Under the pieces are notes generated by a model, which saw only the letters and a list, made by a program, of their open reading frames with translations, searched no databases and was not told where the DNA came from. From the NCBI GenBank assembly GCA_951406725.2, contig OX597819.1, positions 131,688,001 through 131,752,000 on the forward strand: a stretch of 64,000 nucleotides of DNA, given 5' to 3'. The position numbers and the translations under genes are program-made. The DNA comes from Octopus vulgaris (Eukaryota). Positions 12,381 through 63,926 of the stretch are shown here, piece by piece. Positions within the stretch are counted from its first letter, which is position 1, and each line of letters opens with the position of its first letter.

Positions 12381-13179
12381 CATTAGTATGTTTATTAAGG
12401 ATACTTTCTTGATAACAGAAATGGTTCACTTTTTCAACTGGTTGGTCGTGAATTGGAAACTGAAGGTGGAGGTTGCATCAAGACCTTCATTTTTAAATAT
12501 TAATTTCTCAACAAAAACAGTCATAAGTATTCACAAATGTGTCTGGAGTGGCCTGAAGATCTTCCAAATAGTTCTGTCTGATGGTGAAGAGAGAAGTACG
12601 GCTTTTGATCCTTCCAGCTGCTTTGAGTGTAAAAGGGTTGAAAGTACCACCATCCAGATGGTGAGATTTGTAATATTTATTACAAAAGAGAAAGTAGGAA
12701 CAAGAACATCACAAGGGGTTAGGGTGTAAGCGTACACATAACACATGCACATACATATACACGTGTACTCGCTATAACGACGACAACATTATTATAACAA
12801 CACTAATGTAAAAACGACCAAACTATCACAATACTCACCATATGTTGCTCTACATACTCAGTAACACCAAAATTCAAACATTTCTCTCATATCTTATGTG
12901 AGAGTGACAGTATTATCTCCCCTGTTTGGCAGCTTCTCTAGAAAGAAGTGCAGTATATGCATCTGCACTCAAGTGCCATCTAGGACATGGTGTTTTTTAA
13001 GAGTGGAGTACATAGGAACTTGATACTAAGTAATCAGTGTAAACAGTGGGTACCCTACAAGTACAGAGAGTGATTTTTGGCAGACTGACAAGAATTCAGG
13101 TCTTGAGAATTGTTACCAATATGAGCATCCATAAATGATGCCCATGAACTGCTCAGACAACTTACATTCTGTTATCACT

Positions 13180-31216: not shown

Positions 31217-31962
31217 TTAGAAATCTTCATCTACTAAAGGATTGATTAAGGCCTTTATAATTGTTTTCATGAAAGCAGCAGCTGTAAGAGCGGCATAAGG
31301 TTGCCATTCTTTGTTCTTGGAGCCATCGGTATAATCAGATATGCCACGAATAAACATGAAACTGTCTTTCCGATTGCCAATAATAGACTCAAGAACTTGA
31401 TCAAATTCAGTATCGAAAGCTTTGATGTTATATTTCCCAGCAAAATCAAGCCGGATGGCATCGCTTTTGACCACAGGCCGGCCTGAACCAAGGACACCGT
31501 AATGAACCCTCGGCTTGTCTGGATCGAAATTGGAAGCAATCTCCTTTGGTGGTTGTGGGTGTTCAACTTCAATGACGTTGTCTTCTCCAATATTCATATA
31601 AAGACGGTCAGTAGTGGAAGAGGGACGCATAAAGTGGACTTCTTGACCTTGCAATAATTTCTGACCTTCCTCCAAATAGAGTTCCCATGGTTTGGATTCG
31701 GGATTATTTTCACTGGTCTCAACAATCTTCCTTGCAGTTTGTTGTAAACTGCTATCTTTAGGAGCAAATGTCTTGTGAAGATACTGCAAGTCTCCACTTT
31801 TGTTTTTCAGGATTTTCTCACAATAATAATAGATGACAGCTCTCTCTTCCCCTCGAGATATCACCACATCCCCTAGACGAACGTGTTTGTAATAGTCTGT
31901 GTAGTAAGGAACTCCACCTGCAACACCGACGACAAACACATGCTCTATGTTCTGGAATGTAC
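31217..31962 (-). CDS. Last coding exon: C-terminal part of a PNP_UDP_1-fold nucleoside phosphorylase/nucleosidase domain
   Basis: Acceptor tatttcag|GT, phase 1. It reads TFQNIEHVFVVGVAGG...VRLGDVVIS...PRVHYGVLGSGRPVVK...FDTEF...FIRGISDYTDGSKNKEWQPYAALTAAAFMK... to TAA. Confidence 0.93.
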
Positions 31963-32529
31963 CTGAAATAGAGACAAGTCAATAAACACATCTCCATTAC
32001 ATTAAATATTTTCACAAATTCTAGAAAATACATTCAATGAACTGAAATTTTTTGAAGAAGTTGAAATAATGCAAAGAATTAAGAAAAAAAAAAAGAAATT
32101 TTACATAAAATATGGACTTTCTCTTTTAACCCCCCTCCCCCATTCTTGCAATTAAAATAATGATTCACTTTTTCCTATTTTGGTTGGTAGTATTAGAGAG
32201 ACTAGTAAGTTAAGCATTTGCTCTGCTGTGCCTGGGCTGAGTCCAGAAGCAAGTGCCTAGCCTTGTGTACACTGACCATGTCTCTATTCATGAAAATGCC
32301 ATGAAAGAATAAGTCAATATGTTTGTGGCATCTGCACAGCCTCAGAGGATGCCAGATATTGGTTTAGTATAACCATATCTGCTTCACGGTCCCTTCCCTC
32401 CAGATTTTCTGTAGGGGTCTGCTCCCTTAACCTTTTTAAAAATGCTCAATAAATTACTTGACAAGACAGTAGGAAACAAAATAATACAGTATTTTAATTA
32501 CAAAATCAGTTTCAATGTTAAGTCAGCTC

Positions 32530-32636
32530 AATGCTTCAGTTTTGCAGATTTGTTAAAAACAGCTGAGAGAAGAAGAAGAAGAAATGCTTCAGTTTTGCAG
32601 ATTTGTTAAAAACAGCTGAGAGAAGAAGAAGAAGAA
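32530..32636. repeat. Perfect 53-bp tandem duplication
   Basis: AATGCTTCAGTTTTGCAGATTTGTTAAAAACAGCTGAGAGAAGAAGAAGAAGA occurs twice. Confidence 0.95.
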
Positions 32637-33099
32637 TCCAGATTGTTCTAAGAACATGACTGACCACCATCCCAAGAAAATGTCTGGGTTGAAAGAGTAG
32701 TAGAAAAGAAAGCAAGAAGAGTTTGTTGGTTCTTGTCCTGACATAAGCACTAACTGGTGTCGAGACACTCTTTTGGTTGCTGTAAATATGTCCTGAAACA
32801 CAGAATCAATGTTCCGACCTTAAGATCTAAGTTCAAATTCTGCTGTAGTTAAATTTTCCTTTTATCCTTTCAGGGGCAATAAAATAGGCCCTAGTCGAGC
32901 ATTGGGGTTGATGTAAACAACTGCTAGTTAGCTGGTACTTATTCTATTGACCCCAAAAGGATGAAAGGTGAAGTTGACCTCAGCAGCATTTGAACTCAGG
33001 ACATAAAGATGGATAAAATGCCACTAAGCATTTTTGCCTGGCATGCTAATGGCTCTGCCAGCCCACCACCGTAACAAATTGAGTGACAAACTCTAATAA

Positions 33100-33320
33100 T
33101 AATCCTTTCTATTGAAAGCACAAGGCCTGGAATTTTGGGGGAGGAGGCAAGTTGATTACATCGACCCCAGTGATATAACTGGTACTTATTTCCTCAATCC
33201 CAAATGGATGAAAGGCAAAATCCACCTCTGCGGAATTTGAACTCAGAACGTAAAGACAGGCAAAATACCACTAAGCATTTCGCCTGGTGTGCTAACCACT
33301 CTGCCATCTCACTGCTTTAA
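33100..33320 (-). mobile_element. tRNA-derived SINE family B (neighbouring copies at ~32820-33070)
   Basis: Minus strand GAGTTCAAATTCC B-box followed by GCCTTTCATCC...AAATAAGTACCAGT, shared with 37972-38190. Confidence 0.75.
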
Positions 33321-36300
33321 ACTCTCTAATAATAATAACAGGAAAGTAGAGTGTTAGACAATCTTCTCTCCACAGATGCCTAATATTGAAACGTGTGATA
33401 TAAAACAACATGTTTCTGATTGTTAACTACAGGATGTTTGTAAACCGAGACAATGAAGCACTCCTGTAAATATCTACATCAACAGTACAGACTAACCTCT
33501 CTGTATAACACAGCTCAGCTCAACATCAGCAAACCTTACAACAACATTTGATACATGTAACAGTATACAGCAGAAGGGAGATAGCAAAACAAAAGCTAAG
33601 CGTTCAGTTAGAAAACAGCTTGGAAGGATGCCAGGTGTATCGGCTTCAAATGCAGAAAGCAGTTGTAAAATTGATCTCACTGCAAACGGGGACAGGCGTG
33701 ACTGTGTTTACATTGTAACCACAGAATTCCAGGTTCAATTCCACTGTAGAACACCTCGAGGAAGTGTCTTCTATAAAACTTGGGACAAACCAATGCCTTC
33801 TGAGTGGATTCTGGTACATGGAAACTGTGTGTCTGTGTGTGTGTGTGTGTGTGTGTGCACACACGTGTATGATTGACAAAAGAACGGGAGTTACATAATA
33901 ACTTTCATTAGCTTACAGCTGTTTCTGCTTCAAGAAGCATTGTACTCAGAGCAGAGTGCAACATCTTTTAGCATCATTTGAGCCATATGTAGCTTGCTTT
34001 CCAACCACATAGTTTTAGGTTCAGTCCTGTCACATGGCGCCTTGAGTAAGTGTCTACTATTTATACCTCTGGGTCAACCTAAGTCTTTGGAAATTAATTT
34101 GGTAGAAGGAAACTGAAAGGAGCATGTCATGTTTGTGTGTGAGTGTCAACCACCATCACTTGACAACCGGTATTGGTTTGTTTACATCCCCATAACTGAG
34201 TAGATTGGCAAAAGAGATTGATAGAGTACGTACCAGGCTTAAAAAATAAGAACTAGTGTCAATTTGTCTGACTAAAACCCAAGGATTGAAACAAGTCAAA
34301 TATATACTTTTATTTTTATGTCCATTTTTCTAAGCTAGTATGGGTTAGATGAATCTATTATCGGGGCCTTGTTTTATATCTTGTGTCCTTTTAACATTTG
34401 ATGGTGATCCTGCCAGTCATGGTGGATCACTCCCTCCCTATAGCATCTAATTTTCTAACACAAGTCCAACATAGCATGTTTCTGACTATCCATTATGGTT
34501 CTGCTGTTTCCCCTGCTTTCACATCCTTAATGCACAGATAAAGAATTGGAATTCATATTATTATGGTGCCAGATATAATGCCTTGTGGTATTTGTTTTAG
34601 TTAAATGCATTTTGAGTTCAAATCAAATAGAGGTCAACACTGTCTTTCATCCAGGGTTGATAACTAAAGTGCCAGTCAAATGCTGGAATCAATTCTTTGC
34701 TCCTTCTCAGAATTGGCAGCACTCTGCTGCAGAAAGACATGCAAGAAGAACTTGATGCTAACCTTTACCAGTTTTAAAATCAAGGCATTTTTTAAAAAGT
34801 TCCATACATCTTTGAAGGTGAATAACAAGTGAACAATTTGTTGACAGGGGTAATGACAACAACATCACCACTTGTTGTAGCTTAGTGATTTTCAAATGTG
34901 CAAATTTAAACACATGTAAACTCAAACACATACATGCATATATACAATGGGCTTCTTTCAGTTTCCATCTACCAAATTCATTCAAAAGGCTCAGGCCCAG
35001 AAATATAGTAAAAGACACTTGCTTAATATGTCATACAGTGGGACTGAACCTGGAACCATGTATTTGGGAAGTGAACTTCTTAACCACACAACCAGCCCTG
35101 CATATGCAGAGATGTGTGTGTGTGTGTGTGTGTGTAAGTCAGATAGACTTCATAGTCACCAGGAAATAGGACACACAGTTGCTTACGCATCTTAAGTCTT
35201 GTCCTAAATGAAAACTATCACTCGACAAAGATTAGTAATTGATGACCTCTTAGCGTGGGGGAAGCACAAGGCAACCTTTAGAAAGATGGTGTGGAAGCTG
35301 AAAGAACCTGCAGTCAGATGTAGCTTCTAAGAAATATTAGGCAAGATAGCGACCTATAAGACGGAAGACAACTGGAACAATCAGTTGTGAACCACAGACC
35401 GGAGAAGAATGGATGGAGCAAAGTTCTAGCTGGATGGAATGGTATAGGAGATGGTGCCATAAAAACTATGAGACTTGCTTGAGAAGAATGGAGGGTAGAG
35501 ACATTATTTGGTAGCTAGACAAAAAGTTAGATGTGAGGTGTAGTTAATAAGATACAAACATAATCAGAAAAAAAAAATCCAGTACTTTCAAATATACCCT
35601 GTATAGTATTTGTTCTACACTGACTTACAGATACTCCCTTGACACTGTTGCTGTCAGAAATGGATGCAACTAGTAATTGGTAGAAAACTTAAAATTTGAG
35701 CAGAATTTAGGTTAGTTGAAATATGTTTGTCATATACCTCAACTGCTAAAGGTAAATACATGGCAGTTACCACGGAGAAAAAAATCTCTCTTATGGTAAA
35801 AAGGTGTGAAAACACCTGGTTCATTCAGTGTCATCATCTCTCAAATGAGATATAATAGAATTAAATAAATACTTTGTGTAGTGCAGTGGTTCACAGACCC
35901 CTTTTAATATGCTTGTCCTTATCTATACACATACATACATATATAGATTTGAAATTTTGAATTTAGTTCATGGACCCCCCCCCCAGTACTACCTTTGTGG
36001 ACAACGCTTTCCATGCTAGCATGGGTTGGATGATTTGACTGAGGACTGGCGAATCAGATGGCTGCACCAGGCTCCAATCTTGATCTGGCAGAGTTTCTAC
36101 AGCTGGATGTCCTAGTTTATATTTTTTTTTCTGGCATATTATATATCTCAACTCAGTTATACAATTTTAATGTTGGTAGGATCAAGTCTGAGGGATATTT
36201 GGTTGCTCTTTCTAGCATTTTGTGTGATTGTATGGATGCTTCCTCATCAATTTGTAGAGTGAGCAGTATCTACCCATGGGTATCTATTTATGGTTAAATG

Positions 36301-37267
36301 TCTGATCACAGGTATAGAGGCAGCACAGGTGATCATTCAGCCCTTGATCATTGTTCTAACAACTTAATGAGTTTGATCACTTATAAATTCTGTCCAATGT
36401 CTTTGGTATAAGACACTGAGCCATGCTTTCAACATCCATAACCCTTTCAGGACTGGATTTCTGTTGAAACATACGACCCTTGTTTCAATTAATTTTGAAA
36501 ATAATGAGGAATTTACAAAAATAATTTTGTCGTTATTAATTCTGGTTTTTGGAACAAATTAACATTATTTTGAGGGAAGATTTTAATTTGGATTACTTTA
36601 AAACGAGATTGTCAAAGAACAAGGGACAGTTTCAGGCAGGTTGGTGTATAAAGGATTGCACCATGTAAAAAGCAGCCGTGTTGGTGCCACATAAAAAAAG
36701 CAGCCAGTACATTGTGGAAAGTGGTTGGCATTAGGAAGGACATCCAGCTGTAGAAATCACACCAAAACGGACAACTGGAGCAGTTTTCCTACATGTTGGT
36801 TTCTGTCAAAATGTTCAATCCATGCCAACATGGAAAATGGATGCTAAATCATGATGAAATTAGCTTCCTTTTGAATCAACAATGCACATCCAACAACAGA
36901 TCATCATCATCATCATCATCTTGTTCAATCTGTTCCTCTCCACCTTTTGCGGCTAATGTCTTTTTCATTAACATTAAATGGCTTTCATAGAAAGAAACAA
37001 AACATGATCGTGCACCGTTGTGTATTAAATAAAGCTGCTTCATTCTTACCATTGAGGGTTTTGTAATTCCTCATACAACTTAGTTTCCCTCCTAATTACA
37101 TTGGTGCCACCAATAATTCTCAACAGGAAATAATAAAAAACAACATAGAAAACAAACACTAAAAGATGTTTAACACAAAACGTTAGACTTATACTTTTTG
37201 TAACCAGGACAAATAAATACATTTAATAATTTAAGGATCATAAAAAGAAAACAACTTCTTTCCTTAC

Positions 37268-37393
37268 CAAGTAATCTTGTTGTGGTGTTTCCAGAAGAAA
37301 TCTGAGCAGATCTTGCATGGCCAATAGCAGGGAGTTTAGTTGAAACAACTTTGTGTTCTCCAATAAAACCAATTGTGTACACATTGGATTCAC
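37268..37393 (-). CDS. Internal exon of the nucleoside-phosphorylase-domain gene (126 nt, phase 1-1)
   Basis: Boundaries gtttcag|GT GAA TCC ... CTT G|gtaagg. It encodes GESNVYTIGFIGEHKVVSTKLPAIGHARSAQISSGNTTTRLLG, in frame with both neighbours. Confidence 0.92.
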
Positions 37394-37936
37394 CTGAAAC
37401 AATATAAGGAATGGTCAACTGACTTTGAAAGACTTTCTCAATGGCAACAGAGATACATTATTTATTATCATTCTAGTTCCATCTTTCTATACTCAATAGA
37501 TTCTTTCAAACACTTTTTTTAAATTCAAAACCATGCAGGATTATTAAAATGAAAAAATTTTTTAAATAAAAAAAGATGTGGGGCCCCATGACATTTTTCT
37601 CACATTCAAAATAGTCAAAACATGGAACAAATTATCCACATGAGTTGTTAGCTGTCAAGATAATGCATCCTTTGAAAATTCCATGCTTCCTGGAATTCAG
37701 CAACACTTCATCTGACATGCCTACAAACCCTTTCCTCTTTATGACTTTTACTCATTAATTTTCTCTCTTTCTGGGTTTCATCCTGAGGCCCCGAGTATGT
37801 GCTTCTGGCTTACACTGTTGGGTTTGTTTTTGTCTTCTTTATTTCACTTATTGCTGCATTTTCTCCTCTCTTTTAACCTCTTCCAACGAGATGTAGTGCA
37901 CCTGAACACTGTGTACTATAAGCACATCATTATTAC

Positions 37937-37971
<35 letters not shown>

Positions 37972-37972
<1 letters not shown>

Positions 37973-38190
37973 AGGCAGTGAGCTGGCAGAATCATGAGCA
38001 CACCAGGTTAAATCTTTAGTGGCATTTTATTGGTCTTTACATTTCGAGTTCAAATTCCACCAAGGTCTACCTTACTTTTCATCCTTTTGGGGTCGATTAA
38101 ATAAATACCAGTCATGCACTGGGATTGATGTAATCAATTTACCCACTTTCTCATAATTGCTGGCCTTGTGCCAAAATCTGAAACCATTAT
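37972..38190 (+). mobile_element. tRNA-derived SINE family B
   Basis: AAGGCAGTGAGCTGGCAGAATC...GAGTTCAAATTCC...TTTCATCCTTTTGGGGTCGAT, flanked by (ATT)n. Relatives lie at ~43185-43390, ~57160-57345 and ~62072-62225. Confidence 0.8.
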
Positions 38191-38619
38191 TATTATTATC
38201 TGCTTTTTGTCTTTTGACTATTAAAGACATAAAAAAGAGCTAAGATTATTAAATAATAATTATGATAGAAGATCCAAAGTAATACTGCTAAAGAAATAAA
38301 AGAAATGGCATTTGAGACTTTGGTCACAGCAACTTCTTATGAAGAATATCATGAAAACAGGCCACAACAGACAATGTGAAAGAAAATGGTTATAACATAA
38401 AAGCTGTAACAAAAATAAATGGCAGCACACACAGCTCAGCAGCTGTAGTGAAAGCATTTGATGAGGATAAGGGATGGCTTCTTTAATTTTTAAATTATCA
38501 ACAAGATTTACAATTGAGCAAACCTTTCTGTGTAGGTATTTGACCAAATAATTTTTAATAAAGAACATATTCATTCATGAATAGTACCACTGATATAGAC
38601 TTGTTACATTTTATACACA

Positions 38620-39040
38620 AGACAGGGGACCGAGACCTCTGGAGGTATGCTGTGACTGAGAGGACCCGGCAAATAAAGTGAGTTCACAGCTGTAGCTTAC
38701 ACCAGTGTCACATAACCAGCCCAATGAGGAGACCTATTGAGTCAAGTACATCAATATCAAAGTCAAATAAAATGGAAATTGTAGTTATGACCCCCGTGCT
38801 GGTAGCATGTAAAAAGCACCATCCAATCGTGGTCGATGCTAGGTCTTCTGGCCCATGCCATGTAAAAAGCACCCACTACACTCTTGGAGTGGCATTAGGA
38901 AGGTCATCCAGCTGTAGAAACTTTGCCAGGTCAGATTGGAGCCTGGTGCAGCCATCTGGCTCGCCAATCCTCAGTCAAACCGTCCAACCCATGCCAGCAT
39001 GGAAAACGGACGTTAAACGAAGATGATGATGATGATGATG
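38620..39040 (+). mobile_element. RTE 3' end (last ORF codons plus 3' UTR)
   Basis: GACCGAGACCTCTGGAGGTATGCTGTG (DRDLWRYAV), then the UTR and (GAT)n. Confidence 0.88.
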
Positions 39041-40719
39041 AATACCAGTGTTATAGACCTGTTACAGTCAAGGCTGTGCACTTGTGCCAAGACTGTTACC
39101 TCTCAGCAATGCTCATTCCACAATCCAACTGAAAGTATATGTGTGTGTGTGTGTGTATACAGACACATTATACAGACATGACCCTAATGCTAACCATTTT
39201 AAATGGTCACACATACCAAAGCTAATATAATAAATACTACATTAATGAAAGGGATGCCGTTTTCCAACAACTTTACTCTTATTTCCTCAAGTACAGACAA
39301 CATGCAGTCTGGTAGCTGTTTCTGATGGGGCTGCCACAAAATTCCAATTGAATTTAACAGCCAAAACCAGGCGACATCTCTGTTCCACTGGATTTCCTTT
39401 GCAGACAAATGTATAATACTATGACTTAAAGGGAATTACTAATATAAGTTGTAATTATGTTCTTTAGACTCTCATATTACAATTAGACACCAAACACAGC
39501 ACCTTAATTTGTTACTATCTTAACTAATTAGTAACTCAGTCTAAGTCGACATACATTTGCCACAATTGTTTATAAAATATTTTACATAATACTTAAAAAT
39601 TAAAACAATCTGTTTTCATATATTATATCAGTGTGTCTATGTATATACACACACACAAACAGAGGGGGAGAGAGAAAAAAATTCTATCAGTGCAGATAGA
39701 TAACAAATCTGTAACTTAGTTGATTATCTCCCTTTATCTAAAACCTTTTTACTTTTTTTAAATCTAGCCAACAGCCTCCATTTCAAATGTAATTATTTCC
39801 TGTGTTTTAGTATGGATGAGATGGTGGGGAGGGTCCTTCAGCTCTTCCCTTTCAGTGTGCGTGTATGTACGGGTCAGTGCGTGTGTGTGTATGTGTGTGT
39901 GTCTGTCTAAGGCTGCCCTAGGGTTGCTGGTGCCCTGGACAAGCTGAACTTTGATATGTACAAGCTGACAGTCTTGGAAATGTTATTGTCACGCCCTCCT
40001 TGGTGCCCCCTAGCACATAGCGCCCTGAGCGACTGCCCAAGTTGTCAGTACCTTGAGCCGGCTGTGTGTGTGAGCATGCATGTGTACATGGTGTGTGTGT
40101 GTGTGTGTAGGTTATCATGTTGGACAATGTGGATGCGTATACAATAACTTAGGCCAATATGTATAATCATCATCATCACCATCATAAATATGTTATACAG
40201 CTGCATGTGTGCATTAAAATTTTACATTTCAGTTGCTATCTCCTTATGTATGATCTGGTTCCCTTGAGTAGGGGCTCTTCTGACAAATTGTGACACCCCA
40301 CAGAAGAAAGAAAGCTGTGGGGTTGGTGTGAGAAGATATTGTGACAGCTTCCCACAAGAAACCTTGTGGACGTGTTTGCAACAGAGTAGACTGTTCAAGG
40401 AATCCACGAGAAAGTTATTCACAAGTATCTCTATATACATACACATAAAGATACATAGTTGTATGTGTGTGTGTGTGTAGAATAATCATCACTATCGTTT
40501 TAACGTCCATTTCTCTATTCCTGCATGAGTTAGATGGAGTTTACCAAAGCAGATTTTTTATGGTGAGACACCTTTTCAGTCTCCAGCCCTCATCAGTTTC
40601 CAAGTAAAGTAATATCCCCCCCCCCCTAGACACACACACGGCCAGACATGTTTCCATGGAACATTGGAAATGAATGACACTGCTTGCATGACAGTAGCAA
40701 TCAACTGTAAATTATATAT

Positions 40720-41114
40720 ACTCTCTTTTACTTGTTTCAGTCATTTTGACTGCGGCCATGCTGGAGCACCGCCTTTAGTCGAGCAAATCGACCCCGGGAC
40801 TTATTCTTTGTAAGCCCAGTACTTATTCTATCGGTCTCTTTTGCCGAACCGCTAAGTGATGGGGACGTAAACACACCAGCATCGGTTGTCAAACAGACAC
40901 ACAAACACACACACATACATATATATACATATATATATATATACATATATACGACAGGCTTCTTTCAGTTTCCATCTACCAAATCCACTCACAAGGCATT
41001 GGTCGACCCGGGGCTATAGCAGAAGACACTTGCCCGAGGTTCCATGCAGTGGGACTGAACCCGGAACCATGTGGTTGGTTAGCAAGCTACTTACCACACA
41101 GCCACTCCTGCGCC
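40720..41114 (-). mobile_element. SINE family A with target-site duplication
   Basis: Full-length copy, with CTGTAAATTATATAT repeated at 40705-40719 and 41114-41128. Confidence 0.93.
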
Positions 41115-41211
41115 TGTAAATTATATATCATTTTTTTATAATAATAATAATAATATAGGCCCATCTTTTTTCAGTCATTTGTTTAGGTTTAGTTGATTTA
41201 ATTGGAGCTTC

Positions 41212-41245
<34 letters not shown>

Positions 41246-41789
41246 AAATATACAATTACAGTCATTATAAAAAGATTTATGTGGTCACTTTTCTCCAAAA
41301 TTTACAGCCTTTGGGTGTTATTTACAAATTTATAAAAAAATATACATGATGGGCTTCTTTCAGTTTCTGTCTACCAAGGCTTTGATCAGCCAGATGCTAT
41401 AGTAGAAGACACTTGCCTATGGTACCACACAGTGGGACTGAACCTGGAACCATGCAGTTGAGAAGCACACTTTGTACTACAGAGCCATGCCTCTGCCTAA
41501 TCTCTCCCAAGAGTGTGTGTGAGAGAGATGGTCGTCTATCTTGGGTTCAAACGTAACCATATTCTCATTGCAGGCATCAGACTGTAATACATTTCATAGC
41601 ATTTCCATGATGGGTCTTCAGCCCTGATTGTTTAAAGGCATTTTTTATGACCAAAGAGGGATATAATTTGGTCAAGGATTACTCCAACAGTAGTTTCATC
41701 TTTGTGCATTAATCCAAAATGAATTCTCACCCCAGCAGCCAGTGAATACACCTTTGAACGGCAGTGATTCATTTGTATTGATCAAAAAA

Positions 41790-42600
41790 TCAAAAATCAA
41801 AATCGATCAACATGAATGGAAATTGTAGCTGTGATACCAGTGCTGGTGGCACATAAGAGAACCATCCGAACGTGGCCGTTGCCAGTGCCGCCCTGACTGG
41901 CACGTAAAAAGCACCATCCAACCGTGGCCGTTTGCCAGCCTCATCTGGCACCTGTGCTGGTGGCACGTAAAAAGCACCCACTACACTCACGGAGTGGTTG
42001 GCATTAAGAAAGGCATCCAGCTGTAGAAACATTGCCAGATCAGATTGGAGCCTGGTGCAGCCTCCTGGCTTGCCAGTCCTCAGTCAAACCGTCCAACCCA
42101 TGCCAGCATGGAAAGCAGACATTAAACAACAATGATTTGAATTCTTCCACTGATTTCTGGTCCTTCAAATAACTTGCTTCCTCTTCCTTCAAGCAATTCA
42201 TTCCAGATAAATTAAGATCCAGCAATTTCTGCTGTTATTTATGCTTGGTGTCCAGAAGTTGAGATATTTTCATCAAACCAATCTTTGTTTTTGCATTTCC
42301 TGAGACCCAAAATATTCACAGAAATGGCACAAACTGATTTCTCCGAAGTCTATCCATGAATCCTCAAGCAGTCAATTTACTAAGAGCTTCATGTAAATAT
42401 TAAGATACTAGCCTTGAAGCTGCCCTTTGGGTGGCATTCAGGCTACACTCTTGGAGTGGTTGGCATTAAGGGCATCCAGCTGTAGAAACTTTGCCAGATC
42501 AGATTGGAGCCTGGTGCAGCCTCCTGGCTTGCCAGTCCTCAGTCAAACCGTCCAACCCATGCCAGCATGGAAAGCAGACATTAAATAACAATGATTTGAC
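41790..42600 (+). mobile_element. Two RTE 3'-tail copies (41790-42140, 42445-42599) flanking a minus-strand LINE fragment
   Basis: Both tails match the RTE UTR. The intervening minus-strand sequence encodes KNKDWFDEN, typical of BovB-like RTE ORF2. Confidence 0.8.
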
Positions 42601-42917
42601 CACTCAGTGCTATTTCTTATTTGCTTCTATCTAGAAATCAAAGGAAATGACCACTGTTCCCTTCAAACTTTGCTTTTATCACCTGGACATCAGTGTTTTG
42701 AAACTGACCTATTTTCCATTACATTTCAGACAGAGTCAGTGCTGAAGCAGAAATATCATTATAGCAAATATTCTGCTCAATTCCACAGATATGCTTGTCA
42801 GTTGCTTGACCATAGCCACTTGAGCATGTCCCTTAGTTAGTGCCTGAAAAGAATTTTTTTTTTTTTTATTCACAAACAATTCAGAACATTAAAAAGAATA
42901 GAATTGAACCAACAGAC

Positions 42918-43061
42918 CTTCTGTTTTGTATTTCATGTATGTCGTCTTATTTTCCATCATGGCATCAACAGCAAGTTTTTCATAATACATAGCAGTGATG
43001 ATAGCAATGGTCGGCTGTTGGTTGGCAGCAATCGTTGGCATCTGTTTTACGAGTTGTACCT
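42918..43061 (-). CDS. Internal exon (144 nt, phase 1-1), start of the phosphorylase domain
   Basis: Boundaries tctcttgtag|AG GTA CAA ... ACA GAA G|gtctgt. It encodes EVQLVKQMPTIAANQQPTIAIITAMYYEKLAVDAMMENKTTYMKYKTEG, and IAIITA..E is the first strand of the PNP_UDP_1 fold. Confidence 0.9.
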
Positions 43062-45157
43062 CTACAAGAGAATCCATGAAAGCATGGTGTGAGAATTTAC
43101 AACAAACACAAGAATCTCTTTCCAATGAAACAATGAATAAATATGACAATGGTTGTCTAAAGTTAAGGAAATATTGGTTACAAACTTTGGTACAAGGCCA
43201 GCAATTTCAAGGGAGGGGATAAGTTGATAACATGGACCCCAGTGTTTAGCTCGTACTTATTTTATTAATCTCAAAAGGACAAAAGGCGAAGTTGACCTTG
43301 GCAGAATTTGAGCTCAAAATGTAAAATTGGAAGAAATGCCGCTAAGCATTTTGTCTGGTAAAGTAACAATTCTGCCATCTTGCCACCTAAATTAAGGAAA
43401 TATCAACTAATAATAATTAGCAAAGAGTGATGAGTGGGAAGCATTATGGCCAGCTAATGCAGCATTCTCACAAACCAATGCATAGTTGTCTCTTCCCATT
43501 GGTTGATTCTATCTTGTTCTGAAAGTGACACAAGTACAGAACATTGATAAGCTGCAACAATAGTGAAATGCACATCTGTCACTCTCATGGTCACTTCTGG
43601 GTAAATTTTGTTTTAGCAATGATATATATAGTGTTGTTTAATACAATATATCTATAAAATGATTATTTGCACACAAAAACTGCGGCTTCTGGTTTCTTAA
43701 CAATTCACATAACATTAATTATGTTATATAGATGATTTTATTCTGGAGATGCTTCTACAGCATAACCTAAATTTTATACTCACACAAATGTGCACGTGCG
43801 TGTATGTGTATCATTCAATATTAATAGTGCTGCTGTCACTGATATCTATTTCTAAAGAGCCTGCTCATTATTTGTGACATCAGTGATTGAACAGTCCCTA
43901 TTTTTCAACGTCATTGGTGGTGGAATTCTGCTGGCATGTAGTCAGTAAATGTCTGTTCCTGATGAAGCATATGTATGCTGAAATCGTGATCTAACAGTTC
44001 TCCCATGCATGCCAGACGATTCTCTTCTGCTAATGATATTCTTTTACTTGTTTCAGTCATTTGACTGTGGCCATGCTGGAGCACTGCCTTTAGTCGAGCA
44101 AACTGACCCCAGGACTTAGTAGAAGACACTTGTCCAAGGTGCCAGGCAATGGAACTGAACCTGGAACCAGGTGGTTGGTAAGCTACTTACCACGCCACCA
44201 CTCCTGTGTTTTTTTATATGAGAGAATCAGTAATACAATGTTCTAACACTACATCCACACTGAGTATAAAGATTGCCACAGATAAATTTATAAGATGGTG
44301 ATTAGAATGTTTGTATGTGTATTAAACATTGTAAAATGTTGACATTTTATTTTTCACAAATCTCATTATTTCTCTTATCTTGAAGATTTATCAATTTTAT
44401 TTTTAAAACAGCCAGCTAAAGGTCATGGCTGGAAAAAAAAACAAAAAACAAAACAAAAAACCTGATCTTTTCTTTCAATGTATTCCTAAAGCAGAACATA
44501 AACACACATTGAGATGTGAATCTGGCATCTCTACGGCTGTTTCTAGGAGATTGTGTTTGTGTTATTAACGACGATAAATCCGCATATTTGAGGTGGTTAT
44601 TTTAGCCAGTACAACTGGTTGAGGTTGGTGAGGGCAAGGGTTCAAATATTTATGTCACTAATCTCTTATTATGGACCTACCATGTTCTGTGGGTTTTATT
44701 TTGCTTGTTTTCTTTGCAATTCTTATCTAAATTTTGTTTCACGCTTTAGCATTCAGATTACTCCGTCAAATGTAATGCTTATTCATTCACATTACTTTTG
44801 AATTATTCATGTATTATCTCAGTATGAGGACTTTGATGATGTGATAGAATAGAGGGACAGTGTAGGCCAAGTGTAAGAGGCTGGATCTGGCCAGTTTGAA
44901 CAAAAAACAGGAGGAATATTTAAGCTGGAAATATCCAATTTAAATGCTAAAGGTTAAGCAGGTATTTGATTTTGATGTGTTTGTGTATTTGTGCTGCAGC
45001 TATTTCAACAGAATTGTGAAAGGAAACTATTTTAATAAAGTTTTCCAAAATGTATTTTCCAAGGTTTTATGAAATGTAATTCAATAAGATAATTAATTCC
45101 AAAATGAAGTCCTGTAAAGTTGTTTAAAGTTGTAAAATATAAAAATCAAATTGTAAC

Positions 45158-45276
45158 CTGATTTCTCGTCTAGTACGTGTCTCATGAATCCACCCTGCTC
45201 CATTTCTGTGACCAAATTGCGTGTATGGAGTTCTTTTAGCTGTTCACGGACCATAACTTCATCAGCAGCAGTAATT
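45158..45276 (-). CDS. Internal exon (119 nt, phase 2-1), second half of the winged-helix-like domain
   Basis: Boundaries aatttctag|A ATT ACT ... AAA TCA G|gttaca. It encodes RITAADEVMVREQLKELHTRNLVTEMEQGGFMRHVLDEKS, and the phases match both neighbours. Confidence 0.85.
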
Positions 45277-45934
45277 CTAGAAATTAACAACAATTCGTTA
45301 GAGACAATATTACATTTTTAGGGAGCGGTGGGGAATGAAACCAACCAAGCTATGGTATATAACTCATACTTATTACACAGTGAGCCCAGAAGGACTTTTC
45401 CTCCACCTGGGCCCAAAATTTGATGGTAGAACTTAAAATAAAAACTTAGGGCTGATATTTAATATTTGTCAATATGCTAGCATTTCTGATTTGCTCCTAT
45501 TCTATAAAATAATAAACCAGGAAGGTAATGAAAGTCACTACACAACACAAAGTTGGTTATTCAGCATTTCGTTTTTGACAAGCTCTAATTTTGAAGTAGA
45601 AAATCTAAACTTCTAAACCCCAAAAGGGTCATGACTTGAAGTGGATCACACAATGTAGCAAGGAGATATCGGTTGTGATATTTAAGCCGTGAAATACTGG
45701 CAGACAAGAAACTTATTTTCATTTGTTTAAGATGACAAATGCATTAAAACTATTGACTAATCTATGTTGCTGATATTTCTATGGAAGGTCAACATCCTCG
45801 GCATTAGAGTTCACACAACTTTTAATTGCACATCACCTTCATCATTTAACATCTGTTTTCCATGCTGGCATGAGTTGGACAGCTCAAAAGGAGCTGCATC
45901 AGGTTCCATAGTCTGTTTTGACTTGGTTCCTACA

Positions 45935-46274
45935 CTCGCCTCCTTATGAGAGCTCAAAATCTCTCATAGAAGCGCCATCCAACCAAAATGCAAATATATG
46001 GGAAACTACCACCTGTGTCATCTCTTGTGAAAGGTAAGAGAGTCCAGTTTGCTGGACATTGTTGTAGAGCTGAAAAAGAGGTAATTTCTACTCTTCTCCT
46101 CTGGAAGCCATCTACTCGCAATACCAGAGGGCGCTCACTCTCCTACCCTGATGTAATCTCCAGGGATACAGGCATCCAGCAACAGGACCTCCGTAATGCC
46201 GTGATGGAGCGTGAAGTCTGGCGTAGCATGGTAAATTCCATTGTCTCGACCACAGTCGAACAATGATGATGATG
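45935..46274 (+). mobile_element. 3' end of a second RTE-like LINE family nested in a minus-strand RTE tail (~45838-46345)
   Basis: IYGKLPPVSSLVKGKRVQFAGHCCRA...LLLWKP...RGR...RDTG...VMEREVWR, ending in a (TGA)n tail. The host motif TTCCTACA|GCT is split with ACA duplicated. Confidence 0.8.
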
Positions 46275-46929
46275 ACAGCTAGGGGCCCTTCCTAATGCCA
46301 CCCACTTTACAGAGTGGCACTGGGTGATTTTTATGTGGCACCAGCACAACAGATATCACAAACTGTTTTAACATCTCTCTCTCTCTCTCTCTAACACGTA
46401 ATGAGCTGATGATGCTGTTTGTCTAAAGTCTTATTTATGTCATAACATACACTAAGTCCCCGCTCAAGAATTTGTATTTCCAGTTGTGAAGATTTCCAGG
46501 GTCCATATTCTCCTGGTTTCCATTTCCTTTGTTTCGCCTTTTCCATAGAAGCACAAATAAATATCAGCCCAAGATGGCCAGTGAACCTGGGTTATTAAAC
46601 CTGACATTCATGTACGAAGGCATCAAATTGACCAAGTCCACACAGCGGCTCAGTCATTTATATAGAATACCTTGTGGTATTCTGGGATCAAATGAAACCA
46701 AAGTTAACTTTGTCTTTCATCCTTTAAGGGGTCAATAAAAATGGTGCAAATCCAAGGTTGTGGAACAATGGAAGTTTGGGAGGGAAAAATGATGCCTTGC
46801 AGTGTCTCTTCTGGCTGTTTTGTTCTGATAGTAGTGCCTTTGACATTACTGGTGCCAAACTGAACCTGTTAGTAGCCTTACTCTTAAATAAACATGTATC
46901 ATGAAGAGAGAAAACTTGAATGCAAGCGC

Positions 46930-47410
46930 AGATGCCAATCTGGTATTCCACATCTAAGGCCCACATCTTGCTATCGTGCAACATTACTTTACACACAAAC
47001 ATCTTACAATCAGACCTTGACCTTGAAGAATAAGCTTTTTGCTGCCAGTAGAGGTAATAGACCCCTAATCTTTCTAGAGCTTATATTCTAGTTACCACAC
47101 TTTCGGAAAATCACCTTCACTGCTAATTTGGTCACCTGGATGAAAAACAAAAACCTATCAATTATTTCTAGGGAGTCATCTGGGAATTTAAGAAAATTTA
47201 TTTCCTGAGCACTTCTAAGGCTTATTGCCTTGGTACACCAGCTGCATATGAACTCTACCATCTCTGTTAGCTTGCAGGGGATCCTATCACCCCTCTTGTG
47301 TGCCCATTGTTTTCATTGGGTACATCTTAGAGCATTTCTATGGACTCCTTTCTGCATGCTGAACATGACCATTTCTTTGATGGTCTCGTGATACTGTCTT
47401 CCTCCCTACT
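46930..47410 (-). mobile_element. Old copy of the PHD-containing RTE ORF2
   Basis: The minus strand reads KWSCSACRK/GVHRNALRCTQ*KQWAHKR...KLTEMVEFICSWCTKAI...LLPLLAAK...MLHDSKMWA. Confidence 0.8.
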
Positions 47411-47650
47411 TTGCTAAAAAACACACACATTAACATACCAGAAACCACAGCCCCTGACATACACAGAAACACTATGAAACATGCATACCTCCACCCACAC
47501 ATATGAAGGTTTATAAAATAAGAGGGCATTCCAAGAAATATAGCAAAGAATCGGTATCTTTTGCTATCTTCATTGCTGTTTTCACTGTTTAAGAAAAACA
47601 TTAGGAAAGATCTCGTTTGAGATTACAAACATCTTTGGCTAGTTTAACCT

Positions 47651-47991
47651 TGTTGTGTCCACTGATCTGATTGGTTAGCATCTAAGCGCGGTCTGTCTCT
47701 CTACTTATTTCATGCCAGTGTGTAAACTGACCAATCACGGCTTTCGGATAGGACTTTTCATTTGAGCCATCTTAACTCTTTAAATAGGCTGATCATATCA
47801 CGATTCAACGTCTTTCGGCTTAAGACCTTTTAAGGTCTTGGTCGGAGACCACACAGAGCTTACTCAACTATGTTCCAGTTCGAAAGGCAGACGACAGCCA
47901 AGCCAAACATAATATGAAGACGCTATTGTAAGCCAGCGACAGACAGAACGTCATCGTCTCCATCTACGAAGATTTCAACTTGTACACAACA
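47651..47991 (+). mobile_element. Possible solo LTR or promoter-like CpG-containing segment
   Basis: Ends TGTTGTGT...ACACAACA, with ATTGG and CCAAT boxes, a TATA-like TTTAAATAG and a downstream hairpin. No TSD was found. Confidence 0.35.
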
Positions 47992-49005
47992 AGATAAATA
48001 CAGATTCAACTCATGCTGTTAGTGTGAAAATCTCACCACGGAAAAACAGTTGCAGTATATATCTGAAAGAATATCTGGTTTTATAAATGTGAGTCTTCAA
48101 AGAAAAACAACCAGCAGCAGCAGCAGCATTGAGACAAGATACCAAAGATGGATTAAGATGGACCCTGATTGGGAAAAATCAAAGCTTGGAGAGTAAAAGG
48201 AGGGATGGCAGGAGGCACACCTGGCTTGGAAAGGTGGAAGGTGAACTGAGAGAAATGTCTCATACATAGAGTGTGGCACTGTAGAGAGTTGCTAAAGACT
48301 GTCGGAATGGTGTTGAAGAGGTCAGGTCTTTCTTTTCCAACTGAGAAGATGAGCTTTAACTAAATAATCATATCTATTAATGCATGTTAAACACTGAACC
48401 CGAAACAGTAAAACTGTTATTAAAATCTCTTGAAACTTGTTTTCACTGAATAAATAACATCTGTGAACAATAAAAGACAGAAGTAGCAGTGAGAGGTGGC
48501 AGAATAATGAAGGTCGGCTGATTCCATGGCAGTAAGACAGTAATAATTATCATTCATTACATTGATTATTTCTACTGATGTCCCCCCCCCCTCCGTACAA
48601 TTAGTGACTGGACAAATGGATTTTGACATCATTGAAGAGATTATTGGAAGAATTGCTGCCTGTTACCAGAGATGGTTGGCAGATGAAATGGCAAGATTTT
48701 AAGACTTTTGGCGTTTGAAGATTCAAATCACTTTGAGGCAACAAAAACTTCATAAATTATCCAATCAATTAGCCATCTGTTAGTAATTATTGACAGATGA
48801 CTAACTGTATAAACTTCATAGAAGATTAAAGGTTAATGACTTTGGAACAAATCAGTCTTAGAAGCAAAACACTAACAGAAAAAAGATTAAACATCTTTAA
48901 ACAGCATTTATATATATAATCAGTATGCACACACACAGTGAGGAGCAATTAGGGAGTTGTGTGTAGATGTATTGTATGTGCTGTATGACATATGGGTGAA
49001 ATATA

Positions 49006-49320
49006 TCATCATCATCGTTTAATGTCCGTTTTCCATGCTAGCATGGGTTGGACGGTTCGACCAGGATCTGGGAAGCCAGAAGGCTGCACCAGGCTCCAGT
49101 CTGATCTGGCAGTGTCTCTACAGCTGGATGCCCTTCCTAACGCCAGCTACTCAGTGAGTGTAGTGGGTGCTTTTTACGTGCCACTGGCACAGGTGCCAGG
49201 CAAGGCTAGCAACGGCCACGATCGGTTGGTGCTTTTTACATGCCACCGGCGCAGAAACCAGTCAATGTGGCATTGGCATCGGCCACGTTCAGATGGTGCT
49301 TTTTATGTGCCACCAGCACA
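49006..49320 (-). mobile_element. 5'-truncated RTE tail with 12-bp TSD
   Basis: GGGTGAAATATA at 48994-49005 and 49321-49332 flanks the copy. Confidence 0.92.
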
Positions 49321-49863
49321 GGGTGAAATATAGTTGAATAATAAAAGAATTCTAGCAGAGACAAATATTCCTCAACTGTGGAAAAAGCTAAAATAGAGTT
49401 GCTGATTCCTGGATCATAAAATGGTTAGAATAATCAGTAAATTAGCAAGACAGACAAGGTTCATTTGAGAATGAACTTGTTATTGATTAATATCAAATGC
49501 AAACTTGAGAGTTTGTGGAGAAAGGGATAGTCGTTAGTACATAACGAGGTAGGACAGTCCTAGATACGTAACAAGTGCTAAGTAACGGTTTCCATTACAA
49601 AGATGTGCCAAAGAATATCTGAGATCCATAGAAAGTTTGGCGAAATAGATTGGAATGATGAATGTGGAAGAGAGAGGAAAATGAAGAAATTTTCATTAAC
49701 CTATGCTAATGAGGCAACAAACTACAATTAACGAAGACTAAATTATGAATTTGGGTCCTGTACTGTATGAAATCAGTTCCATTTTAAAGAAAATATTCAA
49801 CCTTGCTAAACTAAAAGACATCAGTTGAAAACCAAACTAAATATACATTTGGAATAAACTCAC

Positions 49864-49972
49864 CGGCAGATATCTTCAACTGCCAAAATGTTGGGATAAG
49901 CAGATTCCAATATGTGCAACATCTTTTCCCGGAGAATTTCATCCTTAGGCCGATTGTCTATTTTGGGTAAAC
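49864..49972 (-). CDS. Internal exon (109 nt, phase 1-2), first half of the winged-helix-like domain (missed by the ORF track)
   Basis: Boundaries attttcag|GT TTA CCC ... ATC TGC CG|gtgagt. It encodes LPKIDNRPKDEILREKMLHILESAYPNILAVEDICR, and CG+A joins the next exon as Arg. Confidence 0.9.
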
Positions 49973-55649: not shown

Positions 55650-55664
55650 CGTCTGCAGTCATTC
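55650..55664 (-). CDS. Candidate 15-nt exon (GA ATG ACT GCA GAC G), either a phase 1-1 microexon or the start-codon exon (MTADG)
   Basis: Perfect donor G|gtgagt, and upstream ctcttttattctCTAATtaccatgcag|. It splices in frame to exon 49972-49864. Confidence 0.6.
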
Positions 55665-61852: not shown

Positions 61853-63926
61853 GTATATAAAGATAGGAAAGAAGTGACAGTAATGATACAGTCGGCAGAA
61901 GGAGGACAGGGGAGAGAGAAAGAGAATTAAGAGAGCAGTGTTGGGCTGCAGCAGTCGTGAGGGGAGAGGCATACACACGTGAGTGCATGTGTTTGTACAT
62001 GTATGTGCATATTTGTGTATGTGTATTTTTGAGCATATGTGTTTGTATGTATGTCTCTATATCTGCATGTTGACGGTGAGCTAGCAGAATCGTTAGCACA
62101 TCGGGCAAAATGCTTAGCGGTATTTCATCTGCCGTTACGTTCTGAGTCAATGTAATCGACTTAATCCCTTTGTCTGTCCTTGTTTGTCCCCTCTGTGCTT
62201 AGCCACCTGTGGGCAATAAAGAAATATATATCTGATGTTGACATTGCTTTGTAAAAGAGTTCTGGTTTTGTTTGTGCTGTAACTTAGCAGTACAACAAAC
62301 AGAGACTATTAAGCACCAGATATTGATATGTTTGAGTAAAACCTTTCACATTGCACACATGACTGCAGTCCAATGAAAGCAAAAGAAAAAGCAGATCAAA
62401 GTTTAGTCTCAGAATGTTGACACTATTGACAAGAAAGTGTAAAAAAAACAACAGCAAAAAATTAGTGAAAACCTACAGAGAGATGCTATGCAAAAGGTTA
62501 AACAACAAAGGGTTCATTTCCACTGTGCGGCACCTTGGGCATGAGTCTTGTGAGCGGATTTGATAGAAGGAAACTGAAAGAAGCCCATCATATATGTGTA
62601 GGCTTGTGCTTACATTTGTGCTCTTTGAGTTGTGAGCTATGAAAGGGTGTTGCTTTTGTCAGTTCTTTTGGCCTATAAAACAACGCTTCAATAATATATT
62701 CATCTAACCCATGCTAGCATGGAAAAAACAGACATAAAATAAATGCTGTGAAACTTAGACCCACTTTCACTTACATAAATATGCAGCTGTTGCTCACTGA
62801 AGACTAGGTTAGTAAGGAAAATGAGATGTTAATCAAATGTCACAAATGGGTGCTGATTAAAGACTTATGATTAAAGACTTCATTGATAAAACAGATCACT
62901 GTTAACTAACACGAAACATCAGAAATTGATAAAGAAAATTACATATGACAGCACAGTAACGATAATGACACCATTACTATAATTAATAAAATTATTATTG
63001 CAAACCCACAGAAACATCAATTCTGTTGAATAAGACAAACATTCTTCACAAACATTCTTAGTGGAACAATCTTGACTACATTTTTTTTTTAAAAAGCAGT
63101 GAGTGAGTGAGTGTGTGTGTGTTCTACTCGCTTTTTGTTGTAATATTAATATGAAATGTAATTTTAAAGTCATCAAGATTTTAAGTGATTAAAAATATTT
63201 GCATGCATAATTAAACTTATGATAAAACCATTTTAAGTTTTCTAAGATTACTAGATAAGCCCAAAATCTTTGACAAGAAACAGCTGCAAAATTAATCAGT
63301 TTACAAAAAAAAAAAAAAAACTACACAAAATAGTTTTTTTTTAAGTAGGAGAACACCATGCTTGAAGCTTCAACTCAATACCTACCAACAATAATTGGTG
63401 CCGAAAATTTGTCTTCTGATAAGAAAAAAAAGATATCTATATATATATGTATAAAAAGTGTCAGCTATTTTATACACACCACAAATTATTGTGAGCATAT
63501 TATATATATATAAACAACTTAAAATTTATAAATTTATTATAAGATTAAAATTTAATTGTAATGTTAACATTATTCCCTTTCTACGGCAAGTTTTACCATT
63601 CTGATATGGGTTGTATTGGTGAGCAAGACTGCATCTTACAATGCTTCTTCGTCCTTTATCATCTCACTTGTGATGGTCACCAAAGTTGCCATATCAGATT
63701 TCTTTTCTTGTGATCTATCTTTGCAACAGAAACAATTCACCCCACCTAGCATGTACAACTAATTAGGGCAGTCACCTGGTTATCAGGAATGTATATTCCG
63801 GGCCCACCGAATGAACACTGCTCACCCACCCAAAATGGTAAATTTTTCTTCCTAATAATTGTTCTTGGAGATAGAATGATAGAGTCTTGTTATACTTTGT
63901 TTCCAAATGTAATATATACACACCCT

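What the first reader, a model, noticed from the sequence alone, without database searches (positions are those of the whole stretch)
31217..49972. Winged-helix plus nucleosidase-fold protein resembling NLR/CBASS-type nucleotide-cleaving effectors
Seen: five phase-compatible exons give ~414 aa, with a ~60-aa helix-helix-helix-wing segment followed by a PNP_UDP_1 domain. Known: the motif string VGVAGG / RLGDVVIS / PRVHYG..GSG..V.K / IRGISDY.D..KNKEWQPYAA..AAAF.K is the pattern of the PNP effector domains of fungal NLR-like proteins. Related domains in bacterial CBASS (Cap17) and Detocs systems cleave ATP/dATP during infection. Housekeeping PNP/MTAP do not have this pattern. From memory it resembles the poorly characterised Drosophila CG12065 family. 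Inference: it could be a nucleic-acid-sensing nucleotide-depleting enzyme, or a domesticated derivative of one, in invertebrates. The usual (E/D)ME motif is DTE here, so specificity or activity may differ.
Basis: partly seen in the sequence, partly recalled or inferred. Interest (0 to 1): 0.75.

Follow-up and report, generated by a model that had tools for sequence, protein, structure and literature searches.

The report
Octopus Cap17-like nucleosidase gene
This is the last two-thirds of an intact, spliced octopus gene from an old invertebrate family whose enzyme part is related to bacterial and fungal ATP-destroying immune proteins; it likely still cuts adenine nucleotides, but its supposed Z-DNA sensor lacks the binding residues, and what is probably the same family was already flagged in 2023.

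Summary
Observation confirmed. Five minus-strand exons give 413 aa, exactly residues 177-589 of an annotated octopus protein (LOC106873546). Contigs of 4 of 4 runs join exons 3-4-5. The PNP domain's nearest relatives are NLR-type fungal and bacterial effectors, not MTAN. MTAN catalytic positions E12/R193/D197 are kept in 80, 77 and 80 of 80 members (E12 once as Asp). DTE is a family-wide change, not an octopus quirk. The idea is already in print: Rousset 2023 named CG12065/H14E04.2 as Zalpha-like plus Cap17-like PNP proteins and speculated on nucleic-acid-triggered ATP cleavage, untested. Against that sensor, 0 of 83 winged-helix domains have the Zalpha motifs and the domain is acidic. Low copy number and retention in reduced parasites favour a domesticated, constitutive enzyme. 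The scan found this family before on other DNA (a flatworm orthologue; an octopus linker note). New member of a known, uncharacterised family.

The parts
49864..49972 (-). Coding exon, aa ~177-212: helices 1-2 of the winged-helix (HTH_69) domain with the conserved ESAYPN motif
45158..45276 (-). Coding exon, aa ~213-252: helix 3 and wing of the winged helix; no NxxxY and no PPxW
42918..43061 (-). Coding exon, aa ~252-300: start of the PNP domain with E279 (MTAN E12 position)
   Evidence: its 3' end is joined to exon 4 in contigs
37268..37393 (-). Coding exon, aa ~300-342: PNP core (GNTTTRLLG)
   Evidence: both junctions seen in 4 of 4 runs
31217..31962 (-). Last coding exon, aa 342-589 plus TAA: GVAGG, RLGD, effector-type insertion, D525-T526-E527-F528-D529, R547-G-I-S-D551, W561
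55650..55664 (-). 15-nt symmetric phase-1 microexon of the linker (peptide MTAD); present in some annotated isoforms and absent in others
   Evidence: AG/GT flanks; matches 5 of 7 isoforms tested
63386..63415 (-). 30-nt symmetric linker microexon, with an alternative acceptor at 63436 giving 51 nt
   Evidence: matches 5 of 7 isoforms tested

Best explanation
The exons encode the winged-helix and PNP domains of a conserved three-domain protostome protein that is likely a domesticated descendant of an NLR/Cap17-type effector and likely works as a regulated, constitutive adenine-nucleotide N-glycosidase rather than as a Z-nucleic-acid sensor. Shown: gene structure, folds, kinship and residue conservation. 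Inferred mechanism, by analogy with MTAN (residue roles recalled): D551 protonates the adenine leaving group; E279, helped by R547, activates water that attacks C1'; adenine and a phosphorylated ribose are released. The ribose-side motif is remodelled family-wide (EME+A/G becomes D-x-E-F-D), so the preferred substrate may not be plain ATP. The acidic winged helix, whose conserved face is ESAYPN plus R244 and not helix 3, is inferred to be a protein-contact or structural module. The N-terminal domain, on an alternatively spliced linker, is the likelier regulator.
For: Nearest non-family hits of the family profile among 1.84 billion proteins are fungal tandem-PNP/NLR and bacterial TPR/EAD1 PNPs. 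Profile scores: those 95-161 bits (15 rows, 14 picked by this profile), CBASS Cap17 23, MTAN-like housekeeping rows 8 or less. ML tree: family 100/100 within an effector group 95/93 that holds a true Cap17 (PF18178+PNP beside a SMODS gene). E279 79/80 (+1 Asp), R547 77/80, D551 80/80, W561 80/80; aa 267-345 average 80% identity to the octopus protein over 87 members. Two copies in this genome. Members in Intoshia, tapeworms, Gordionus and Seison. Passages on the fly and worm genes describe expression and regulated splicing in S2 cells, neurons, ovary and worm development. Winged helix: no Zalpha motif in 83 members, 1 of 83 net positive; the genome's own Zalpha has both motifs and charge +4.
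Against: No enzyme activity has been shown for any member in the papers found. E527 (MTAN E174 position) is kept in only 67 of 80 and is Gly in 6 rows, including the named nematodes, which also fits a pseudo-enzyme. AU tests only marginally reject family+MTAN (p=0.049) and do not reject the family lying outside the effector group (p=0.11). The mixture-model quick tree leaves MTAN and Cap17 unresolved. The winged helix's top structural match is ZBP1 Zalpha (Z 11.9), tied with ordinary regulators (11.6). CG12065 appears in a SUMO-enriched immune-response table and among ovary cells with a haemocyte-like signature. A constitutive role is inferred from conservation only.
Confidence: 0.5

Rival explanations
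1. Nucleic-acid-triggered immune effector, the Rousset 2023 speculation and the first reader's first option: the winged helix senses Z-form or foreign nucleic acid and activates ATP/dATP cleavage.
For: Effector-type PNP. The winged-helix fold matches ZBP1, PKZ and viral Zalpha at Z 10.7-11.9. Sponge and fungal relatives cleave ATP in vitro.
Against: 0 of 83 have NxxxY/F, 0 of 83 have PxW, median charge -4; these motifs are described as required for Z binding (PMC11298590). Pfam z-alpha is not among the 25 families most matched by 91 members. Helix 3 surface positions are the least conserved. Low copy number, no expansion.
Confidence: 0.12
2. Immune or stress effector that still depletes ATP but is switched on by a protein or small-molecule signal at the N-terminal domain or winged helix (guard-like), not by nucleic acid.
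For: Sensor-linker-effector layout like other effector-clade proteins. Basic residues R503, K507 and R512 are kept as K/R in 68, 60 and 79 of 80. Weak immune-context mentions of CG12065.
Against: Slow evolution and vertical, low-copy inheritance. The ribose-side motif differs from all 9 bacterial or unnamed effector rows and most fungal rows in the alignment. No direct evidence.
Confidence: 0.18
3. Pseudo-enzyme or nucleotide-binding regulator: the PNP domain binds an adenine ligand and signals through the other two domains without meaningful turnover.
For: Met of EME lost in 78 of 80; E527 replaced in 13 of 80; bulky F528 and D529 replace small residues. Long stem branch.
Against: The putative acid, base and Arg are nearly invariant across protostomes.
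Confidence: 0.2

Closest known systems
Arthropod/nematode 'Zalpha + Cap17-like PNP' proteins of Rousset et al. 2023 (Drosophila CG12065/Q8MRM6, Apis A0A7M7MVF0, C. elegans H14E04.2/H2L0A5); Pfam HTH_69 PF22979
   Same: Same winged-helix plus PNP layout. Full-length homology to Caenorhabditis brenneri (33%, E 7e-85) and to bees. HTH_69 matched in 84 of 91 aligned members.
   Different: Mollusc member; the preprint text I searched does not mention molluscs (Table S6 not seen). The N-terminal domain is not described in the parts read. Identity with CG12065 itself is inferred, as its sequence was not among the hits I could name.
Cap17 / DtcC and fungal-NLR or sponge DDAN ATP nucleosidases
   Same: PNP fold; E12/R193/D197 positions; aliphatic residue at MTAN F151; the C-terminal WQxYAA helix and long central insertion are shared with NLR-type members.
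   Different: D-x-E-F-D in place of EME-A/G/S-A/G; no NACHT, TPR, Death or TPALS domain; low copy and slowly evolving; only 23 bits to Cap17 itself.
MTA/SAH nucleosidase (MTAN, E. coli MtnN)
   Same: Closest solved fold (Z 23.1); catalytic positions align.
   Different: 37 bits against a cut-off of 169 for NF004079; lacks M173 and F151; has a ~90-residue insertion and two extra domains.
Zalpha domains (ADAR1, ZBP1, PKZ)
   Same: Winged-helix fold (Z 11.9, rmsd 2.0, 63 aligned).
   Different: No NxxxY, no PPxW, net acidic.

Membership tests
HTH_69 + PNP protostome family (CG12065/H14E04.2-like) | HTH_69 above cut-off followed by a PNP-fold domain | tested here: met
   36.2 bits vs 27; MTAN fold
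HTH_69 + PNP protostome family (CG12065/H14E04.2-like) | Full-length homology to nematode and insect members | tested here: met
   tree 100/100
HTH_69 + PNP protostome family (CG12065/H14E04.2-like) | Direct comparison with CG12065 or H14E04.2 themselves | not tested
   Sequences not identified among the hits; link rests on architecture and on Caenorhabditis and Apidae homologues
Cap17-clade immune ATP nucleosidases | PNP domain groups with the effector clade, not the housekeeping clades | tested here: met
   Profile ranks and tree 95/93; caveat AU p=0.049 and 0.11, deep nodes open in the mixture tree
Cap17-clade immune ATP nucleosidases | Catalytic Asp of the RGISD motif | tested here: met
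   D551 80/80, aligned with the Cap17 of L011; equivalence to E. coli Cap17 D472 is inferred
Cap17-clade immune ATP nucleosidases | (E/D)ME ribose-site motif | tested here: not met
   D-T-E here; Met in 2 of 80 members; some fungal PNPs also deviate
Cap17-clade immune ATP nucleosidases | Cleaves ATP/dATP to adenine and ribose triphosphate | not testable with these tools
   Needs an assay
Cap17-clade immune ATP nucleosidases | Activated on infection, restricts pathogens | not testable with these tools
   Only passing literature mentions
Zalpha domain | Winged-helix fold | tested here: met
   tied with ordinary regulators
Zalpha domain | NxxxY in helix 3 | tested here: not met
   0 of 83; definition from PMC11298590
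Zalpha domain | pPxW in the wing | tested here: not met
   0 of 83
Housekeeping MTAN | NCBIfam equivalog cut-off | tested here: not met
   37 vs 169 bits

The most novel reading that the evidence does not exclude
A bacterial/fungal-type immune ATP-nucleosidase domain was domesticated at the base of protostomes into a core three-domain enzyme with a re-wired ribose pocket (D-x-E-F-D). It would cleave an adenylate whose 2'/3' position is substituted, such as a cyclic nucleotide, oligoadenylate or ADP-ribose, under control of an N-terminal domain of undescribed family and splice-tuned linkers: an unknown nucleotide-signalling step shared by flies, worms and molluscs.
Probability: 0.15. Interest if true: 0.8.

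Novelty: new member of a known kind. Interest (0 to 1): 0.36.

Why it matters
The family is conserved across protostomes, probably includes fly and worm model genes, descends from an immune effector clade, and has no functional study in the papers found. The octopus gene adds no new system. What the analysis changes is the question to test: the published Z-nucleic-acid-sensor idea is unlikely on sequence grounds, while the conserved but remodelled active site and the unclassified N-terminal domain are the parts worth assaying.

Tried and rejected
N-terminal domain (aa 5-158): confident model (pLDDT 83) but no Foldseek hit at E<=0.001. Best VIA Z was 6.0, to 40S ribosomal subunit chains, which is at background level. 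No usable Atlas hit. Pfam DED at E 0.014-0.16 in 4 of 91 members is far below cut-off and the fold is beta-rich, so it was rejected. This does not show a new fold. The search for a stand-alone N-domain gave 7 short hits, taken as fragments or split models. Complex prediction of N-domain with PNP domain: no verdict. hhalign of the winged helix against one Zalpha sequence was uninformative. Sequence search of PDB found no solved family member or Cap17-type structure. The look-up of sequencing runs listed no holder on record as RNA. Every named family member is a protostome, but only 120 of 644 hits were listed and many are unnamed, so absence from deuterostomes or cnidarians is not shown; one search did not address this. 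No N-domain exon was found for the C16 paralogue in the 80 kb fetched. Two searches for MTAN residue roles gave nothing useful, so those roles are recalled. The Cell version of Rousset et al. is not held and the preprint's supplements (Table S6) were not seen; either may list molluscs or add tests. For the mixture tree, 20 of 54 rows were dropped and only the quick search finished.
Full report
1. Observation. The gene lies on the minus strand. Exons 49972-49864, 45276-45158, 43061-42918, 37393-37268 and 31962-31217 have canonical AG/GT ends and compatible phases, with introns of 4587, 2096, 5524 and 5305 bases. They encode 413 residues that are identical to residues 177-589 of P0001, XP_014776439.1, LOC106873546. 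One source labels that locus Octopus vulgaris and another O. bimaculoides. In 4 of 4 sequencing runs from 4 studies, one contig covers exon 4 only; its loose ends are the adjoining ends of exon 5 and exon 3. So junctions 3-4 and 4-5 exist as spliced molecules. Junctions 1-2 and 2-3 rest on the annotation and on splice signals.

2. The whole gene. The first 176 residues lie upstream. Four exon matches fall at G000:C6:131,795,455-131,831,810, 43-80 kb beyond the window, so the coding span is about 113 kb. Two symmetric microexons of the linker lie in the window, 55664-55650 and 63415-63386. Annotated isoforms carry 16 to 181 linker residues among the six full isoforms compared, and an unnamed 1055-aa relative has a much longer acidic linker. 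An earlier scan note (e1-8668316) describes this microexon array; I checked only these two exons. A paralogue on C16 (43% identical in the last exon) has five matching exon pieces for the winged helix and PNP domain.

3. Anatomy. AlphaFold with 87 sequences gives pLDDT 85 and pTM 0.84: an N-terminal beta/alpha domain (about aa 5-155), a disordered linker, a winged helix (184-245) and a PNP domain (about 266-582). The PNP domain matches MTAN best (Z 23.1, rmsd 3.2, 224 aligned; Foldseek). The winged helix matches ZBP1 Zalpha (Z 11.9), a Lactobacillus regulator (11.6), PKZ Zalpha (11.5) and TtgV (11.4), all tied. The N-terminal domain has many near-invariant residues but no clear family or fold match.

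4. Family and range. The last exon has 644 longer homologues at E<=0.001, of which 120 were listed, 44-100% identical. Named members are molluscs, annelids, a bryozoan, a nemertean, chelicerates, crustaceans, insects and a tardigrade, a priapulid, nematodes, a nematomorph and Seison, and flatworms including tapeworms and the orthonectid Intoshia. The family is one clade (100/100) in which molluscs, annelids plus the nemertean, nematodes and pancrustaceans each group together. That is the pattern of an old, vertically inherited, low-copy gene kept even in reduced parasites (inference).

5. Kinship of the enzyme domain. Against 1.84 billion representatives, the best non-family hits are fungal tandem-PNP and NB-ARC proteins and bacterial-type TPR/NTPase and EAD1 fusions, down to E 1e-56. 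With a true CBASS Cap17 (L011, PF18178+PF01048 beside a SMODS gene), a PADLOC PDC-M60C match and 12 housekeeping enzymes added, the 54-row ML tree puts the family in an effector group at 95/93. Family-profile scores are 95-161 bits for 15 NLR-type rows (14 of them picked by this profile, so partly circular), 23 for Cap17 and PDC-M60C, 0-19 for three other effector-type rows, and 8 or less for the 11 housekeeping rows that scored. Limits: the AU test rejects family+MTAN only at p=0.049 and does not reject the family lying outside the effector group (p=0.11). The 34-row mixture tree (quick) joins the family to the fungal group at 81 and leaves MTAN and Cap17 unresolved. PADLOC and NCBIfam scores of P0001 alone are weak and do not discriminate (31 and 37 bits).

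6. Active site. Alignment with E. coli MtnN maps E12, E172-M173-E174, R193 and D197 to E279, D525-T526-E527, R547 and D551. Among 80 members: E279 79 (+1 Asp), R547 77, D551 80, W561 80, D525 80, Met at 526 only 2, E527 67 (Gly 6, Asp 4, Gln 2, Ala 1), F528 69, D529 76. The roles of the MTAN residues are recalled; PDB titles of E12Q and D197N complexes are consistent with them. So the acid/base set is under strong selection, while the ribose-side motif has been rebuilt in the family ancestor.

7. Is the winged helix a Zalpha sensor? PMC11298590 (passages) states that NxxxY in helix 3 and pPxW in the wing are needed for Z binding. None of 83 members has either motif, the median net charge is -4 and only 1 of 83 is positive. 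The genome's own Pfam-positive Zalpha (L003, probably ADAR1; name inferred) has both motifs and charge +4. Conservation sits on L-x-x-x-ESAYPN and R244, not on helix 3's surface. Direct nucleic-acid sensing is therefore unlikely, though not excluded.

8. What is known. Rousset et al. (bioRxiv 10.1101/2023.01.24.525353; I read parts 1-4 of 7 and searched passages; supplements not seen) place Drosophila CG12065, an Apis protein and C. elegans H14E04.2 in the Cap17 clade, call their extra domain Zalpha-like, and speculate that they degrade (d)ATP on recognising foreign nucleic acid. They assayed only a fungal NLR domain and a sponge Death-domain protein. Six library searches found no functional study of the family. 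Passages seen mention CG12065 in a SUMO/immune proteome table (PMC4592996), as a T4/T5 neuron marker (PMC10752939), as an RBP-bound and SR-regulated transcript in cultured cells (PMC4617965, PMC4274639) and in ovary stretched cells (PMC7205450). H14E04.2 appears as developmentally spliced (PMC2265522) and in an expression list (PMC11363564). PMC11249213 (passages) repeats the PNP immune-module view. An earlier scan note on a flatworm orthologue (e1-9512670) reached the same reading; I saw it after my own tests and it is not independent support.

9. Verdict. The feature is real and correctly read, but it is an annotated orthologue of a family already flagged in 2023. Most likely it is a domesticated, regulated adenine-nucleotide glycosidase (0.5). 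Rivals are a pseudo-enzyme or ligand sensor (0.2), a protein-triggered immune effector (0.18) and a nucleic-acid-triggered effector (0.12). Novelty: new member of a known kind. Interest 0.36.

Noticed in passing
window 4686-5746 (-): Mariner/Mos1-type transposase remnant in separate frames (HTH_48 and Transposase_1)
   Followed up: partly
window 3-1030 (+) and 10962-12409: Reverse-transcriptase (LINE-like) retroelement fragments (RVT_1)
   Followed up: partly
window 32530-32635: A roughly 50-nt direct duplication in intron 4, seen by eye
   Followed up: no
introns, e.g. window 38800-39040, 41790-42140, 49000-49330: Many copies of a dispersed SINE-like repeat, seen
   Followed up: no
G000:C16:45,779,500-45,824,900 (L002, L047-L051): Paralogue with the same winged-helix and PNP exon layout and a DSEFD motif; its N-domain exons were not found in 80 kb
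   Followed up: partly
L003:1477-1710 (G000:C5): The genome's only Pfam z-alpha match, with intact NxxxY and PPxW; probably ADAR1
   Followed up: yes
L011:2-3066: CBASS-like locus (SMODS nucleotidyltransferase beside a Cap17) in Archangium gephyra
   Followed up: partly
P0148, P0150, P0154, P0158, P0171: Nematode members replace the MTAN E174-position Glu by Gly while keeping the other catalytic positions; possibly a lineage-specific change or loss of activity
   Followed up: partly
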